Source of the DNA: an uncultured Clostridia bacterium
Lineage (GTDB): Bacteria > Bacillota > Clostridia > TANB77 > CAG-508
DNA length: 64,000 bases
Direction of reading: 5' to 3'
NCBI GenBank assembly: GCA_904378095.1
Contig: CAJFHE010000002.1
Span: 20,194 to 84,193, forward strand
Shown: piece after piece, positions 60,046 to 63,120 of the stretch
How positions within the stretch are numbered: position 1 is the first letter of the stretch
Layout: every line of letters starts with the position of its first letter
The notes under the pieces: generated by a model
Told to the model about the DNA's origin: nothing
What the model saw: the letters and a program-made list of their open reading frames with translations, nothing else
The model's database searches: none
Made by a program: the position numbers and the translations under genes

Positions 60046-60117
60046 TTAGTCTCCATTCATTGCACATCCACAGTCGTTGAATTCCTCTACGCTCATTTCC
60101 CAGTCTTGTCTCTCCAT
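60046..60117 (-). CDS. putative RiPP precursor peptide MERQDWEMSVEEFNDCGCAMNGD (23 aa)
   Basis: Strong RBS AGAAAGGGGGTG 5 nt before ATG, 51 nt downstream of the second rSAM gene, followed by hairpin CTACAT-AGAA-ATGTAG. Confidence 0.7.
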   Translation of the reverse strand: MERQDWEMSVEEFNDCGCAMNGD

Positions 60118-60168
60118 ACTCACACCCCCTTTCTTAAAATCATGTATTTAAGTATAAATCAAGATGCT

Positions 60169-61149
60169 CTAAGAAACTTCTTCTTTTGCTATACAATTAA
60201 AGTCAAATCCATTGATTTTGTTGCTACTTTGGTAAGCAGATCTTCTACATCCTCCACAATATGCTAAATGCTTACAATTGCCACACCCTTCATAATTTCT
60301 TCTGTCTCGTATTTCTCTTAGTAAATCTGATTCTAGCCAAATTTTTTCTAAAGGCTCCTCATGCACATTTCCTGCTTTTATCCTTACAAAAGGACATGGG
60401 ATTACATCTCCATTTGCTAGAATTGCACAAGATGCTATACCCGCTGTGCAGCCGCCTTTTATTCTAAACTTCTCGTCTTTATCTAAACACATTCCTTTAA
60501 ATGAGTTAACATATGGATGTTTTAATTTATTTATCTTTCCTTGCTTCTCATATTCTAGTAATTTTTTTATTGCAAATATCTTCTCTTCTTTACTTAGCAA
60601 GAATTCTTTATCTCTACCAGTATCTATGCAAAAATTAAATGCGATATGTAAATTGTTTTCATTTGCTATTTTTACTATTTCATCAATATGATTAACATTT
60701 TTCTTATGGACAGTAGTAAATAAATACGGCTTTACGTTGACCGTTTCCAAGTCTTTTGCTAGCTTAATTGTATTTTCACTGCTAATATTCCTTACCTCAT
60801 TTTCGTCAATATCGAAGCTTAAATGTACGTAATCAAATCCTTGCAAATCTTCTAAATTTAGATTTCGAATATATCCATTTGTTTGTAATGTTATTTTATT
60901 TATATTCTTTAATTTATTCCTGTTATTCTTCAAATATGCACAAATTTCTTTAAATTGTGGATGCAAGCACGCTTCTCCACCAGATAAAGTAAGAGTATGA
61001 ATATGATTTTCATTTGCAAAATTTATGTATTTTACTATATCGTCATAATCCATATCAATATTTTTGTTTTCTCTGTTATAGCAGTGCAAGCAATTCAAAT
61101 TACATTTTGTTGTAATTTCAAGCTCCAACATATGCATCGATAATCCCAC
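60169..61149 (-). CDS. radical SAM/SPASM-domain peptide maturase-like enzyme 2
   Basis: CNLNCLHC, SGGE and SPASM CTAG...GDVIPC...CGNCKHLAYCGGC...C. Likely start GTG 61149 or ATG 61137, overlapping enzyme 1. Confidence 0.9.
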   Translation of the reverse strand: MGLSMHMLELEITTKCNLNCLHCYNRENKNIDMDYDDIVKYINFANENHIHTLTLSGGEACLHPQFKEICAYLKNNRNKLKNINKITLQTNGYIRNLNLEDLQGFDYVHLSFDIDENEVRNISSENTIKLAKDLETVNVKPYLFTTVHKKNVNHIDEIVKIANENNLHIAFNFCIDTGRDKEFLLSKEEKIFAIKKLLEYEKQGKINKLKHPYVNSFKGMCLDKDEKFRIKGGCTAGIASCAILANGDVIPCPFVRIKAGNVHEEPLEKIWLESDLLREIRDRRNYEGCGNCKHLAYCGGCRRSAYQSSNKINGFDFNCIAKEEVS

Positions 61150-62179
61150 ACCTAACATCTCCTTCCTTTTCCACATGAGCATTTTCATGTATATAGCTAT
61201 CCGTCCAAGCTCTACAGCCAGAAAAACAATTGTTATGTTTTTTACAATTCAAGCACTCTTCTGGCAAATTATTATTTAAATAATATTCTCTAAACTTTTT
61301 AAAACCTTTTCCATTTTTCCAAATTTCATTTATGTCTTCTTCAAAAACATTTCCACATAAGAATTCATCTGTCTGGAAGAAATTACATGGATACACATTT
61401 CCATTGTATTTTATTATAAGTTTGCTTTTCCCTGCTGCACAAACCGGCATCTGTAAACTTTTTTCTTCTTCTCCTAGCAAACCATATAGTCCATGCTTAT
61501 ATACAAATTTATCTTTTCCTACCATTTTTACATAGCTTAAATATTTTTCCATATTTTCTTTATTTATTGGAACACTTAAAGAATCAAATTTTTTTCCTGT
61601 ATAGCAAGGTATTGCCATTGTTGGTGAATATGTTAGATTATCGAATTTATTTTCTAGATAAGTATATAACTCTTTATAATTTTCAAAATTTTCTTTGATT
61701 AAAACTGTGTTTACTGAAACACTTTTTCCTGAATTCAATGCTTTTTCTATATTATTTATTGCTCTCTCAAATGAGCCCTTAAATCCTGTGATTTCATCAT
61801 TAATTTCTTTATATCCATGAAGTGAAAATACAAATTCATCCGCATATTGTAAAATATCTGAAATATCAATTGAGCCATTTGTGTTAATTAAATTTTTTAG
61901 CCCTTTTTCCTTTGAATACTTTAGAATTTCTGTAAAATGGGGATATAAAAAATTCTCTCCACCAGAAAAATGTATTTTCTTTATTCCTAAATTGTATAAA
62001 TCATCTACAACTATCTTCCACATTCCTGGCGGTTTGTCTTCGTAGACCTCTTTTGCATCACAATTTTCAAAACAGAACTTACACCTAAAATTACAATTTC
62101 GTGTAAGTTCCACTTGTGCAAAATTTGGTCTACTCCAAATCAAATTTATCAATTCTTTTTTTGAAAAGCCATTTATCAA
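61118..62179 (-). CDS. radical SAM/SPASM-domain peptide maturase-like enzyme 1
   Basis: CNFRCKFC, SGGE and SPASM CAAG...GNVYPC...CLNCKKHNNCFSGC. TTG start follows GGAGGT. Confidence 0.9.
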   Translation of the reverse strand: MINGFSKKELINLIWSRPNFAQVELTRNCNFRCKFCFENCDAKEVYEDKPPGMWKIVVDDLYNLGIKKIHFSGGENFLYPHFTEILKYSKEKGLKNLINTNGSIDISDILQYADEFVFSLHGYKEINDEITGFKGSFERAINNIEKALNSGKSVSVNTVLIKENFENYKELYTYLENKFDNLTYSPTMAIPCYTGKKFDSLSVPINKENMEKYLSYVKMVGKDKFVYKHGLYGLLGEEEKSLQMPVCAAGKSKLIIKYNGNVYPCNFFQTDEFLCGNVFEEDINEIWKNGKGFKKFREYYLNNNLPEECLNCKKHNNCFSGCRAWTDSYIHENAHVEKEGDVRCGIIDAYVGA

Positions 62180-62273
62180 AATTCCTACCTCCTTCTTTAT
62201 AATACTTGATTTGTATGCTGTTAATTAGTTGGCTATAATAGAACACAAATAACCTTGCATACTGTGTTGTTTA

Positions 62274-62963
62274 CTATAAAGTTTCAATCACATCTTTTTT
62301 TACTAAATAATCTATAAATTTTTGAGGTATATTTTCTGTCTTATCATTGTTTATTATTTGCTTAAACCATTCACGTGGTTCATCTTTCAAAAAAATCAAA
62401 TCTGGATTAGTATAAATTGCAATATTTTCTTCATTTTCTATATAATTTGCTGACTTTTTTAACCTGTATCCTCTATCTTTTACTTCTATTCCTAATGCAA
62501 CTTTTTCTACCTCTTTGCCTCCTATATTTTCCACTTCTTCTCCTATTACTTCAAATCCATTTTTCCTATAAAAAGAAATTGCGCCATTATTTTCTTTTGC
62601 ACACCATAACAATACTTTTTTACATTCCTTTGATAAATCTTTTATTGATTTCTGCAAAAGACTTGTACCAATACCATGATTTTGGCAATCATTTTTCACA
62701 TATAAAGCAAAAACTTCTCCTTCATAGTCTGGATATTCACTGTTTTTTCTTTTTCCATAATAGCAATATGCAATTGGCTCGTCTTTTTCATAAATAATAA
62801 CGTCTTTCTCTTTTAAATTTTTTAAATATTTCTCTACTTCATTTTTTGCTTCTAAGCTTTGTAAAACCTCATCTGGAAAAATATTTTTATATGTCTTTCT
62901 CCAATTATCAATTTTAATTTTTGCAATTATTTCGCCATCTTCTGTTTTTCCTTTTCTTATCAA
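62274..62963 (-). CDS. GNAT acetyltransferase with ~65-aa C-terminal RRE/PqqD-like extension
   Basis: ALYV..CQNHGIGTSLL and NGAISFYRKNGF. The tail reads as beta-strands followed by helices. Start TTG 62963 or GTG 62972. Confidence 0.8.
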   Translation of the reverse strand: MIRKGKTEDGEIIAKIKIDNWRKTYKNIFPDEVLQSLEAKNEVEKYLKNLKEKDVIIYEKDEPIAYCYYGKRKNSEYPDYEGEVFALYVKNDCQNHGIGTSLLQKSIKDLSKECKKVLLWCAKENNGAISFYRKNGFEVIGEEVENIGGKEVEKVALGIEVKDRGYRLKKSANYIENEENIAIYTNPDLIFLKDEPREWFKQIINNDKTENIPQKFIDYLVKKDVIETL

Positions 62964-63120
62964 ATGCATCACCCCTATTTTTTAAGCTTGTCTTTATATA
63001 TGTATATGTTCTTTTATTTAAAAATATTACTTTTTCGAATAATTATACTATAAATTTTTTTGCATAGTAAACATTTTTCTGTAAATAATATTAATATATT
63101 AATTTTGTTGGAGGTATTTT

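What the first reader, a model, noticed from the sequence alone, without database searches (positions are those of the whole stretch)
60046..62972. Candidate undescribed RiPP cluster: GNAT-RRE fusion, two rSAM/SPASM enzymes and a 23-aa CxC precursor
Seen: a co-oriented unit of GNAT(+tail), rSAM/SPASM-1, overlapping rSAM/SPASM-2, a tiny ORF and a hairpin. Both rSAMs have intact CxxxCxxC and Cys-rich SPASM motifs and lack an N-terminal RRE. Known: SPASM rSAMs beside short peptides install thioether or C-C crosslinks (sactipeptides, ranthipeptides, streptide, PqqE, MftC). Inference: a new family, since the peptide does not resemble SCIFF, PqqA, MftA or subtilosin as I know them. Two enzymes for two Cys suggests one modification each, and the GNAT could acylate the product. 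No transporter or protease lies in the unit, hinting at an intracellular, cofactor-like or spore-associated product. A sigmaE-like TAATATT-N14-CATATACA upstream of the GNAT is weak support for sporulation timing.
Basis: partly seen in the sequence, partly recalled or inferred. Interest (0 to 1): 0.88.

Follow-up and report, generated by a model that had tools for sequence, protein, structure and literature searches.

The report
Undescribed radical-SAM peptide maturation island
A 4-kb inserted gene island in a small gut Clostridia genome encodes a tiny, strongly conserved peptide, a peptide-binding domain fused to an acetyltransferase, and two radical-SAM enzymes, and the same peptide-and-enzyme set recurs in distant ultra-small bacteria without matching any curated family.

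Summary
On the minus strand lie a GNAT with a C-terminal tail, two overlapping rSAM/SPASM genes, a 23-aa ORF with a good ribosome-binding site, and a hairpin.

The tail folds as a RiPP recognition element (pLDDT 93.6; best PDB match the TbiB1 RRE, TM 0.81). In most relatives it is a separate 55-120 aa protein.

Peptide, RRE, rSAM1 and rSAM2 travel together in Clostridia, Butyrivibrio and Patescibacteria. I found the peptide in 58 of 70 family loci. Ten of the other twelve are cut by a contig end.

The peptide's last 18 residues are W-x-M-x-[VI]-x-x-F-x-x-x-G-C-x-x-N-x-[D/N]-stop. Only one Cys is invariant, so "two Cys, two enzymes" fails.

No NCBIfam model reaches its cut-off for either rSAM. 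Peptide and RRE match no NCBIfam model and no Pfam model at its cut-off.

In this genus the unit plus a convergent LigW/ACMSD-like amidohydrolase is an island inserted between DUF2383 and spoIIAA.

Two unexplained patterns emerged. A valine-tRNA ligase gene sits beside the cluster in 5 of 27 lineages. Asp-ending precursors co-occur with a carboxylate-handling enzyme (13 of 14 lineages, against 1 of 10 Asn-ending ones).

The chemistry is unknown. I read it as a new RRE-dependent rSAM RiPP family.

The parts
62985..63030 (-). Conserved upstream block (promoter-like). It has a -35-like GTAATATT, then 14 nt, then CATATACATATATAAAGACAAGCT.
   Evidence: The sequence is. The block is kept in 7 of 10 genus loci in the alignment. 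A sigma-70-like TTTACT-18-TATAAT lies at 63071-63042. Which sigma factor reads it is not established.
62478..62972 (-). GNAT acetyltransferase domain of the fusion protein, about residues 1-165. It contains the Q-x-x-G-x-G acetyl-CoA loop.
   Evidence: Pfam PF00583 at 55.4 bits against a cut-off of 20.7, residues 41-140. No NCBIfam equivalog reached its cut-off; the best was PaiA at 46.1 against 250. The likely true start is the TTG a few codons in.
62274..62477 (-). RRE (RiPP recognition element) domain, the C-terminal 67 residues of the GNAT protein.
   Evidence: The AlphaFold2 model has pLDDT 93.6. The top Foldseek matches are RRE domains: TbiB1 (TM 0.81), PbtF, ThcOx, TruD and McbB. It is homologous to stand-alone proteins that overlap the rSAM1 start in other loci. 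Pfam and NCBIfam do not recognise it.
61118..62179 (-). rSAM/SPASM enzyme 1 (353 aa).
   Evidence: Pfam Radical_SAM and SPASM. The CxxxCxxC motif is at C29, C33 and C36, and 7 SPASM Cys are invariant. The best NCBIfam hit is MftC at 105.7 against 265. The best PDB match of the family profile is SkfB at 1.8e-23, followed by CteB, PqqE and SuiB.
60169..61188 (-). rSAM/SPASM enzyme 2 (339 aa from the first ATG; homologues align from residues 8-11).
   Evidence: Pfam. The best NCBIfam hit is NirJ2 at 118.6 against 500. Ten conserved Cys. It stands in tandem after rSAM1 in 19 of 20 genome loci; the 20th is cut by its contig end.
60046..60117 (-). Precursor peptide gene (23 aa plus stop).
   Evidence: Ribosome-binding site and sequence. 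Purifying selection. Family alignment and conservation. It is the only copy in the genome.
59944..59971 (.). 12-bp hairpin between the convergent peptide and amidohydrolase genes.
   Evidence: A T-run follows on the + strand, so it looks more like the amidohydrolase terminator. On the - strand the tail is weaker.
58943..59911 (+). Amidohydrolase-fold (PF04909) gene with a conserved Cys-rich insert. It is part of the island.
   Evidence: Pfam at 37.5 against 26.4. The HxH motif and the His, His and Asp ligands are invariant. The AlphaFold2 model has pLDDT 92.2. Its fold neighbours are LigJ, LigW, LigI, gamma-resorcylate decarboxylase and ACMSD. In the genus it is present in exactly the 5 of 24 genomes that carry rSAM1. 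It is linked to the cluster in three different orientations.

Best explanation
This is a member of a previously undescribed family of RRE-dependent radical-SAM peptide maturation (RiPP-type) systems. In this genus it arrived as an island of about 4.1 kb.

**Shown**
- The conserved core is four genes: a short precursor, a small RRE (fused here to a GNAT), and two SPASM radical-SAM enzymes.
- The precursor ends in W-x-M-x-[VI]-x-x-F-x-x-x-G-C-x-x-N-x-[D/N]-COOH.

**Inferred mechanism**
1. The alternating hydrophobic W-x-M-x-V-x-x-F stretch is the recognition strand held by the RRE.
2. The RRE presents the C-terminal G-C-x-x-N-x-D module to the two rSAM enzymes.
3. One enzyme most likely links the single invariant Cys sulfur to a carbon of Asn16 or of the last residue, giving a sacti- or ranthipeptide-like thioether.
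4. The other enzyme carries out a second radical step on the same C-terminal module.
5. The fixed distance of Cys, Asn and Asp/Asn from the free C-terminus suggests that the terminus itself takes part.
6. Where the last residue is Asp, a carboxylate-handling enzyme then acts on it. Here that is a LigW/ACMSD-like amidohydrolase-fold protein. Elsewhere it is a PP-loop, Asn-synthetase-like protein.
7. The GNAT acetylates an amine of the product.
For: **Co-conservation of the four core genes**
- rSAM2 follows rSAM1 in 19 of 20 genome loci.
- An RRE-family ORF is present in 65 of 70 family loci.
- The peptide was found in 58 of 70 loci. Ten of the other twelve are cut by a contig end, one contig starts inside the peptide's last codons, and one carries a deletion of the core.

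**Taxonomic spread**
- Clostridia, Butyrivibrio, Microgenomates, Saccharibacteria and Paceibacterota MAGs.

**Peptide conservation**
- Among 35 distinct 18-residue cores: Met3 in 34, Gly12 in 35, last residue D in 21 and N in 14.
- Trp, Cys, Asn and the terminal D/N were required by that pattern. A looser scan that asked only for G-C near a stop had already found the peptides.
- Within the genus there are 4-9 synonymous codon changes per version and no amino-acid change in nine DNA versions.

**RRE fold**
- pLDDT 93.6. The top PDB neighbours are all RiPP leader-binding domains.

**Both rSAMs look active**
- Each has the CxxxCxxC motif and 7 SPASM Cys.
- The nearest solved relatives of rSAM1 are peptide-modifying SPASM enzymes: SkfB, CteB, PqqE and SuiB.

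**Island status**
- rSAM1 and the amidohydrolase occur in the same 5 of 24 same-genus genomes.
- In 3 of 5 cluster-less genomes examined, DUF2383 and spoIIAA lie 209-404 nt apart.

**Tailoring of the last residue**
- 13 of 14 Asp-ending lineages carry the PP-loop gene or the amidohydrolase, against 1 of 10 Asn-ending lineages.

**Secreted-peptide context in one lineage**
- The Butyrivibrio locus has an RNPP regulator and an MFS exporter.
Against: - No chemistry was observed. The thioether and the roles of the two enzymes are inference from family resemblance at low scores. Every NCBIfam hit is far below its cut-off.
- The RRE is seen only by fold, with a Foldseek E-value of 0.01 for a 67-residue domain. 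Pfam gives nothing. A profile search of PDB sequences gives nothing below E = 0.31.
- The island holds no protease and no exporter.
- The whole 18-residue tail is conserved across phyla. This is more typical of cofactor precursors such as PqqA or MftA than of antibiotic cores (general knowledge).
- The Asp/Asn correlation counts related lineages as if independent, and I formed it after looking at the data. Seven lineages were dropped: six for short flanks and one (L096) with no peptide found. Counting the L117/L118 lineage as Asp-ending without either enzyme would make it 13 of 15.
- One locus (L118) keeps the enzymes but has lost the peptide core.
- Transcription is not shown. Only short exact-match contigs from RNA libraries lie on the rSAM genes, and none lies on the peptide.
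Confidence: 0.75

Rival explanations
1. The peptide is a sacrificial scaffold for a small molecule or cofactor, as in mycofactocin or PQQ. The two rSAM enzymes remodel the C-terminal residues. The amidohydrolase-fold, PP-loop, methyltransferase and GNAT enzymes tailor or release a low-molecular-weight product that stays in the cell.
For: - The best curated hit of rSAM1 is the mycofactocin maturase MftC. PqqE is among the PDB relatives.
- A discrete RRE, with no RRE on the rSAMs, matches the MftB/PqqD layout (the layout itself is recalled).
- The conserved residues keep a fixed distance from the C-terminus, and the core is conserved across phyla.
- The accessories are small-molecule-type enzymes.
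- Most loci have no exporter or protease.
Against: - The distribution is very patchy: 5 of 24 species in the genus and only about 20 loci among 185,579 species genomes.
- No conserved dependent oxidoreductase appears beside the cluster.
- It occurs in Patescibacteria, which have minimal metabolism.
- The Butyrivibrio locus has an exporter and a quorum-type regulator.
- The scores to MftC and PqqE are far below their cut-offs.
Confidence: 0.25
2. The product targets valine-tRNA ligase. The ValRS gene beside the cluster is a resistant or immunity copy. In lineages without an extra copy, the GNAT and the amidohydrolase protect the producer.
For: - A ValRS gene lies within one or two genes of the cluster in 5 of 27 rSAM1 lineages. 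These fall in at least two clades of the rSAM1 tree (quick tree only).
- Four of the five are one ValRS type. They are 50-58% identical to each other where full-length (the partial L100 copy is 33-38% identical to them) and about 30% identical to the primary copies.
- In both CPR genomes that could be tested (0.8 and 0.6 Mb), the adjacent gene is a second ValRS.
- Three genomes that carry the cluster without an adjacent ValRS have a single ValRS.
Against: - In the window's genome the neighbouring ValRS is the only one. It was already next to DUF2383 and spoIIAA in genomes without the island.
- A related Saccharibacteria genome (G061) has the second ValRS type but no rSAM1 and no cluster beside it.
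- G049 has the cluster but no second-type ValRS was found. Its contig is cut at rSAM1.
- The same ValRS type is the only ValRS of G043, so it can be a housekeeping gene.
- Nothing in the peptide points to valine mimicry.
Confidence: 0.1
3. In this genus the island is switched on in the mother cell during sporulation (sigma-E-like promoter), and the product is spore-associated. This concerns timing and can hold together with any of the chemistries above.
For: - The upstream block is conserved in 7 of 10 genus loci.
- My motif hits three sites in the 64-kb window against 0.82 expected from shuffles. One of them lies 45 nt before spoIIP.
- The island lies beside spoIIAA-spoIIAB-sigF-spoIID.
- The sigma-E consensus itself is recalled, not tested.
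Against: - I wrote the motif after seeing the site.
- Genome-wide it hits 51 places. Of 10 further downstream ORFs scanned, one is a spore gene (ypeB); NifS, a ComEC-like protein, FtsH and a permease subunit are not, and five are unknown.
- The position next to spoIIA is an insertion accident.
- Most carriers of the family, the Patescibacteria, do not sporulate (general knowledge).
Confidence: 0.3
4. The two rSAM/SPASM proteins are non-peptide enzymes (heme or siroheme type such as AhbD or NirJ, or a sulfatase maturase), and the small ORF is spurious.
For: The best NCBIfam hits of rSAM2 are NirJ2 (118.6 bits) and AhbD (100.2 bits).
Against: - Both scores are far below the cut-off of 500.
- The peptide and the RRE are co-conserved with the pair across phyla.
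- The peptide is under purifying selection.
Confidence: 0.02

Closest known systems
Mycofactocin system (MftA precursor, MftB RRE, MftC rSAM/SPASM)
   Same: It has a short precursor whose conserved residues sit at the very C-terminus, a discrete small RRE, and a SPASM rSAM without its own RRE. MftC is the best curated hit of rSAM1. Later steps use hydrolase-type enzymes (recalled).
   Different: - The score is 105.7 against a cut-off of 265.
- The peptide ends G-C-x-x-N-x-[D/N], not the Val-Tyr end that I recall for MftA.
- There are two rSAM enzymes instead of one.
- I saw no other recognisable mft-type gene in the island, but did not search for them by family.
Sactipeptide and ranthipeptide maturases (SkfB, CteB, PapB, AlbA)
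   Same: They are SPASM rSAM enzymes acting on Cys-containing peptides. SkfB and CteB are the nearest solved relatives of rSAM1. Asp and Asn are known thioether acceptors in ranthipeptides (recalled).
   Different: - There is a single invariant Cys, not several.
- The RRE is a separate protein rather than N-terminal on the enzyme.
- The NCBIfam scores for PapB, AlbA and StsB are 50-71 bits against cut-offs of 340-850.
PQQ system (PqqA, PqqD, PqqE)
   Same: It combines a tiny precursor, a discrete PqqD-type RRE and a SPASM rSAM. PqqE is among the PDB relatives.
   Different: - PqqE scores 80.1 and 61.5 against a cut-off of 381.
- Pfam does not recognise the RRE as PqqD.
- The peptide motif is different.
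- A second rSAM is present.
Cassettes with two SPASM proteins named in NCBIfam (GeoRSP system; SynChlorMet ScmE/ScmF)
   Same: Two SPASM-family proteins sit side by side. Both rSAMs hit these models weakly.
   Different: The scores are 59-89 bits against cut-offs of 400. What these cassettes contain beyond the model names is recalled, not tested.
Microcin C immunity logic (MccE GNAT, MccF peptidase) and resistance copies of tRNA ligases in antibiotic clusters
   Same: A GNAT and a hydrolase-fold enzyme sit in the cluster, and a tRNA-ligase gene lies beside it in some lineages. The MccB peptide clamp appears among the lower fold matches of the RRE.
   Different: There is no MccB-like adenylating enzyme in the window. 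The neighbouring ligase is ValRS, not AspRS. The resemblance is by analogy only and is recalled.

Membership tests
RRE-dependent rSAM/SPASM RiPP system (general kind) | A short precursor gene is conserved next to the maturase | tested here: met
   The peptide was found in 58 of 70 family loci, and 10 of the 12 misses are cut contigs. It is under purifying selection.
RRE-dependent rSAM/SPASM RiPP system (general kind) | A leader-binding RRE domain (PqqD-like winged-helix fold) | tested here: met
   Met by fold only. The model has pLDDT 93.6, and the top PDB matches are RRE domains with TM up to 0.81. Pfam and NCBIfam find nothing by sequence.
RRE-dependent rSAM/SPASM RiPP system (general kind) | An rSAM CxxxCxxC motif plus a 7-Cys SPASM motif | tested here: met
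   for both enzymes.
RRE-dependent rSAM/SPASM RiPP system (general kind) | The peptide is actually modified | not testable with these tools
   This needs expression and mass spectrometry.
Mycofactocin (MftC equivalog TIGR03962) | Score at or above the curated cut-off | tested here: not met
   rSAM1 scores 105.7 and rSAM2 scores 73.4 against 265.
PQQ (PqqE TIGR02109) | Score at or above the curated cut-off | tested here: not met
   80.1 and 61.5 against 381.35.
Heme-type rSAM (NirJ2 TIGR04055, AhbD TIGR04545) | Score at or above the curated cut-off | tested here: not met
   rSAM2 scores 118.6 and 100.2 against 500. rSAM1 scores 83.8 and 92.5 against 500.
Ranthipeptide or sactipeptide maturases (PapB NF047865, AlbA NF012164, StsB NF045574) | Score at or above the curated cut-off | tested here: not met
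   Scores of 50.4-71 bits against cut-offs of 340-850.
Ranthipeptide or sactipeptide | A Cys-to-carbon thioether in the product | not testable with these tools
   There is one invariant Cys. The chemistry is unknown.
Named precursor families in NCBIfam or Pfam | The peptide matches a curated precursor model | tested here: not met
   The window peptide matches no family. Five longer relatives match none. Among 31 database relatives, the only descriptive name given is 'hypothetical protein'.
GNAT (PF00583) | Pfam gathering score | tested here: met
   55.4 against 20.7. No NCBIfam equivalog reached its cut-off.
Amidohydrolase_2 (PF04909) | Pfam gathering score and metal ligands | tested here: met
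   37.5 against 26.4. The HxH motif and the His, His and Asp ligands are invariant in 13 sequences. The fold neighbours are LigJ, LigW, LigI and ACMSD.

The most novel reading that the evidence does not exclude
The family makes a modified C-terminal peptide or fragment that acts on valine-tRNA ligase. Producers protect themselves in one of two ways. Some carry a second, divergent ValRS beside the cluster, as in two Patescibacteria genomes of 0.6-0.8 Mb. Others, as here, modify or cleave the product with the cluster's GNAT and amidohydrolase-fold enzyme. This would be a ribosomal-peptide inhibitor of ValRS. I recall no natural product known to target that enzyme.
Probability: 0.1. Interest if true: 0.9.

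Novelty: new variant of a known kind. Interest (0 to 1): 0.62.

Why it matters
If confirmed, this is a new radical-SAM RiPP family with several useful properties.

- **A compact, well-defined substrate.** The conserved tail is 18 residues with one Cys, one Asn and a fixed C-terminus.
- **An RRE that sequence models do not detect.** Pfam and NCBIfam do not recognise it.
- **Two SPASM enzymes of unknown chemistry.**
- **An unusual host range.** The family is shared between animal-gut Clostridia and ultra-small Patescibacteria.

The 23-aa window peptide is nearly all conserved motif. That makes it a convenient minimal substrate for working out what each enzyme does.

Two patterns found here give concrete hypotheses about tailoring and about the biological target. 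One is the link between Asp-ending precursors and carboxylate-handling enzymes. The other is the recurrent ValRS neighbour.

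Tried and rejected
**Steps that gave no answer**
- **Binding prediction.** Complex prediction of the RRE domain (alignment A2) with the window's 23-aa peptide returned 'no answer' (score 0.02). It is not evidence either way. The peptide is shorter than the 30 residues the tool is calibrated for.
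- **Sequence recognition of the RRE.** Pfam at E up to 10 gave no relevant hit for 9 RRE sequences. NCBIfam gave none. A profile search against PDB sequences gave nothing below E = 0.31.
- **Single-peptide search.** L104's precursor found no candidate in the 5.8-billion-protein index. The alignment search then found 31, none of them with a descriptive name.
- **ESM Atlas.** The amidohydrolase search gave only generic Amidohydro_2 clusters.
- **RNA evidence.** Eight RNA or possibly-RNA runs held small shares of the stretch. Laying four of them gave six short pieces with no or one differing letter on the rSAM genes and the RRE/rSAM1 junction, and none on the peptide or the amidohydrolase. These are contigs from RNA libraries, so transcription is not shown, and the uncovered parts prove nothing.
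- **Other scans.** Rfam found no family in 54000-64000. No tRNA gene lies near the island or near the ValRS-adjacent loci, so a tRNA integration site does not explain the ValRS neighbourhood.
- **MetRS beside L029.** That genome has two MetRS, but so does the related L030 genome, whose copies could not be placed relative to its cluster. I drew no conclusion.
- **Sigma-E regulon test.** The genome-wide scan was not specific.
- **Literature.** Six peptide strings searched anywhere in the text gave 0 papers. Four keyword searches gave only listings and abstract starts, with nothing on this family. In PMC10288494 I read only the passages returned by a term search.
- **Tree.** The careful tree did not finish. 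Only the quick tree with SH-aLRT support was used.

Full report
**What is in the window**

On the minus strand there are four co-oriented ORFs:
- a 232-aa GNAT protein (62274-62972);
- a 353-aa rSAM/SPASM protein (61118-62179);
- a 339-aa rSAM/SPASM protein (60169-61188), overlapping the first by up to 71 nt;
- a small ORF (60046-60123).

The small ORF has an AGGGGG ribosome-binding site 6-7 nt before the ATG at 60117, which gives a 23-aa peptide.

A 12-bp hairpin lies at 59944-59971. It sits between the peptide gene and a convergent amidohydrolase-fold gene (58943-59911, +).

Pfam confirms the GNAT domain and Radical_SAM plus SPASM in both enzymes. Both carry CxxxCxxC from residue 29, so neither has room for an N-terminal RRE. 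Both keep seven SPASM cysteines.

**No curated family fits**

Against NCBIfam release 20, rSAM1's best hit is the mycofactocin maturase, at 105.7 bits against a cut-off of 265. rSAM2's best hit is NirJ2, at 118.6 against 500. None of the 25 best hits shown for each enzyme reaches its cut-off. The peptide matches nothing.

Five longer precursors and three RRE proteins from related loci also match no NCBIfam model. Pfam finds no relevant match for nine RRE sequences even at E = 10.

**The peptide is real and belongs to the enzymes**

Orthologues of rSAM1 (75-89% identical) occur in 5 of 24 other genomes of the genus. All of them have the peptide downstream of rSAM2, almost letter for letter.

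Nine distinct DNA versions of the last 18 codons differ from the window's by 4-9 synonymous codons and no amino acid. A tenth version, in L020, has one amino-acid change.

A word-indexed search of 5.8 billion proteins found 86 rSAM1 relatives at E <= 1e-20. Those with a name are called only 'radical SAM protein' or similar.

Scanning one genome per species (185,579 species) gave 66 loci. Twenty of them (L018-L037) are true family members at 35-89% identity. They come from Clostridia, Butyrivibrio, Microgenomates, Saccharibacteria and Paceibacterota MAGs, and one MAG labelled Gammaproteobacteria.

rSAM2 follows rSAM1 in 19 of the 20. The last is cut by its contig end.

In the distant loci the peptide lies upstream of rSAM1 rather than downstream.

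A metagenome scan added 50 family loci, L092-L141. In all, the peptide pattern was found in 58 of 70 loci, with 36 distinct cores. The 12 loci without it break down as follows:
- 10 are cut by contig ends;
- L119 starts inside the last four codons of the peptide;
- L118 has a deletion that removes the core.

**The peptide motif**

In 35 distinct 18-residue cores:

| Position | Residues |
|---|---|
| 1 | Trp |
| 3 | Met in 34, Ile in 1 |
| 5 | Val 26, Ile 6 |
| 8 | Phe 22, Tyr 5 |
| 11 | Asn 23, Cys 6, Ala 3 |
| 12 | Gly 35 |
| 13 | Cys |
| 16 | Asn |
| 18 (last) | Asp 21, Asn 14 |

Trp, Cys13, Asn16 and the terminal D/N were demanded by the search pattern. Gly12 and Met3 were not. The earlier scan asked only for G-C near a stop.

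Only one Cys is invariant.

Leaders vary from 2-5 residues in gut Clostridia to about 35 in Patescibacteria. They come in acidic and Lys-rich flavours. The window's peptide is the only copy in its genome.

**The GNAT tail is an RRE**

In every distant locus a 63-91-aa ORF overlaps the start of rSAM1 and is homologous to the last 65 or so residues of the window's GNAT. In L029 and L030 it also stands alone.

An AlphaFold2 model of the window's tail, built with 32 sequences, has pLDDT 93.6. Its best PDB neighbours are leader-binding domains of RiPP enzymes:
- TbiB1 with its leader peptide (TM 0.81);
- the PbtF RRE;
- ThcOx, TruD, McbB and LynD;
- lower in the list, MccB and SuiB.

The Foldseek E-values are only about 0.01, as expected for a 67-residue domain.

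A full HMMER scan of 1.84 billion representatives with the RRE profile found 78 proteins at E <= 0.001, of which 71 are at E <= 1e-10. Nearly all are 52-121 aa long, and only three have the length of the GNAT fusion (233-261 aa).

The family is therefore small and sharply bounded, and the fusion is a minority form.

**Accessory genes**

Clustering all ORFs of the 70 loci gave:
- the RRE family in 65 loci;
- a class-I methyltransferase in 29;
- a roughly 330-aa protein with weak PP-loop and Asn-synthase hits in 19;
- the amidohydrolase in 16;
- a third, roughly 420-aa rSAM in many environmental loci.

A stand-alone GNAT follows rSAM2 in L103. The Butyrivibrio locus has an HTH/TPR RNPP-type regulator upstream and an MFS transporter downstream.

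The amidohydrolase is linked to the cluster in three arrangements:
- convergent in the window's genus;
- divergent and upstream in L030 and L095;
- co-directional and downstream in L097 and L100.

Its metal ligands are invariant, and it carries a conserved Cys-rich insert. Its model (pLDDT 92.2) is closest to the Amidohydrolase_2 hydratases, lactonases and non-oxidative decarboxylases: LigJ, LigW, LigI, gamma-resorcylate decarboxylase and ACMSD.

**Island status**

In the genus, the amidohydrolase is present in exactly the five genomes that have rSAM1. It was found in none of the 16 genomes of other genera in the order.

In three cluster-less genomes (G023, G008, G014), DUF2383 and spoIIAA are 209-404 nt apart. 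The other two examined had a divergent DUF2383 and no spoIIAA in the fetched stretch.

The island therefore runs from about 58.9 to 63.0 kb. Its position beside the spoIIA operon is an insertion accident.

**Asp or Asn at the end**

I grouped loci by rSAM1 at 70% identity. I counted only lineages with at least 3.2 kb of upstream flank or with one of the two genes seen.
- 13 of 14 Asp-ending lineages carry the PP-loop gene or the amidohydrolase.
- 1 of 10 Asn-ending lineages does.
- Fisher p = 7e-5.

Caveats apply. The lineages are related. I formed the grouping after looking at the data. Six lineages were dropped for short flanks and one (L096) because no peptide was found. The L117/L118 lineage could be added as an Asp-ending lineage without either gene.

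I read this as a hint that the terminal carboxylate is processed.

**Valine-tRNA ligase**

A class-I tRNA-ligase gene recurs beside the cluster. NCBIfam names four of them ValRS of the PRK13208 type. Three of these score over that model's cut-off. The fourth, L100, is a 323-aa piece at the locus edge. The window's neighbour (63661 onward) is the genome's only ValRS.

In all, ValRS is adjacent in 5 of 27 lineages, and MetRS in one. On the quick rSAM1 tree these lineages fall in at least two clades.

The three full-length cluster-adjacent copies are 51-58% identical to each other. The partial L100 copy is 33-38% identical to them. All are about 30% identical to the primary ValRS of the same genomes.

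In the Saccharibacteria genome (0.8 Mb) and the Microgenomates genome (0.6 Mb), the adjacent gene is a second ValRS. Three other cluster-bearing genomes without adjacency have one ValRS.

Several results weigh against a strict link:
- The window's ValRS was already in place before the island arrived.
- G061, a relative of the Saccharibacteria genome, has the second ValRS type (74% identical) but no rSAM1 and no cluster beside it.
- G049 has the cluster on a contig that begins at rSAM1, and no second-type ValRS was found there.
- The same type is the sole ValRS of G043.
- No tRNA genes lie nearby.

By my own rough reasoning, ValRS within about three genes of a random locus should occur in well under 1% of cases. 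The recurrence is therefore striking, but it remains unexplained.

**Promoter**

Upstream of the GNAT there is a sigma-70-like TTTACT-18-TATAAT.

Closer in lies a block kept in 7 of 10 genus loci: GT[ACT]ATA[AT]TT, about 13 nt, then GCATA[TC]A... followed by ATATAAAGACAAGCT. It resembles the mother-cell sigma-E consensus as I recall it.

A pattern written from it hits three sites in the window, against 0.82 expected from shuffles. One lies 45 nt before spoIIP.

Genome-wide the pattern hits 51 sites. Of 10 further downstream ORFs scanned, only ypeB is a spore gene.

The block is a conserved regulatory element. Its sigma factor is not settled.

**Expression**

Four metatranscriptome-library runs from two studies, recorded as chicken gut or gut, hold short pieces with no or one differing letter. 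These lie on the rSAM genes and the RRE/rSAM1 junction. They are assembled contigs and may derive from DNA, so transcription is not shown.

**Interpretation**

The four-gene core, the RRE fold, the intact SPASM enzymes and their nearest solved relatives (SkfB, CteB, PqqE and SuiB) make a peptide-maturation system the best reading (confidence 0.75).

The proposed division of labour is inference: an RRE-held W-x-M-x-V-x-x-F strand, two radical steps on G-C-x-x-N-x-D, and then carboxylate tailoring and acetylation.

A mycofactocin-like small-molecule route is a serious rival (0.25). A ValRS-directed product is the boldest reading that the evidence does not exclude (0.1).

I found no description of this family in curated models or in the papers I could search. 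I therefore rate it a new variant of a known kind.

Noticed in passing
window 63661-64000 (-), continuing beyond the window; L032, L034, L100, L107: A valine-tRNA ligase gene lies next to the cluster in 5 of 27 lineages. In two Patescibacteria genomes of 0.6-0.8 Mb it is a second, divergent copy. The window's copy is the genome's only ValRS and was there before the island arrived.
   Followed up: partly
L018-L037 and L092-L141, seen against window 60046-60117: Precursors ending in Asp co-occur with a PP-loop, Asn-synthase-like gene or with the amidohydrolase (13 of 14 lineages). Precursors ending in Asn rarely do (1 of 10).
   Followed up: partly
window 63121-63549 (+): A 142-aa protein gives only a weak DUF2383 hit (E = 0.0011). 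It is 93-98% identical across species in which the neighbouring ValRS C-terminus is only 61-72% identical and the GNAT 58-69% identical. That is unusually strong conservation for an unknown protein.
   Followed up: no
window 55074-58708 (-) and 40023-41168 (-): Sporulation genes surround the island: spoIIAA, spoIIAB, sigF, spoIID, an M23 SpoIIQ-like protein and, further away, spoIIP. The carrier is therefore a spore-former with a genome of only about 1.28 Mb (91.8% complete).
   Followed up: partly
L139:12-454: Two precursor genes with different cores stand in tandem on one short metagenome contig. Every other locus examined had a single precursor.
   Followed up: no
L118:3150-3275, compared with L117:360-521: One metagenome locus keeps the methyltransferase, RRE and both rSAM genes but has a deletion that removes the precursor core.
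   Followed up: partly
L035, L036, L101 and about 20 other environmental loci: There is an extended cluster form: a PP-loop-like protein, a third roughly 420-aa rSAM with an N-terminal extension of about 110 residues, and a class-I methyltransferase, all upstream of peptide-RRE-rSAM1-rSAM2.
   Followed up: partly
window 58943-59911 (+), residues about 50-106 of the protein: The amidohydrolase carries a conserved insert with about eight cysteines (C-x3-C-x3-C ... C-x-C ... C-x2-C). The model is less confident there, with pLDDT 56-78. It may be a metal or Fe-S site.
   Followed up: no
L029:7200-8846: A methionine-tRNA ligase lies directly downstream of the cluster in one Clostridia MAG. That genome has two MetRS, but so does a related genome whose MetRS copies could not be placed relative to its cluster.
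   Followed up: partly
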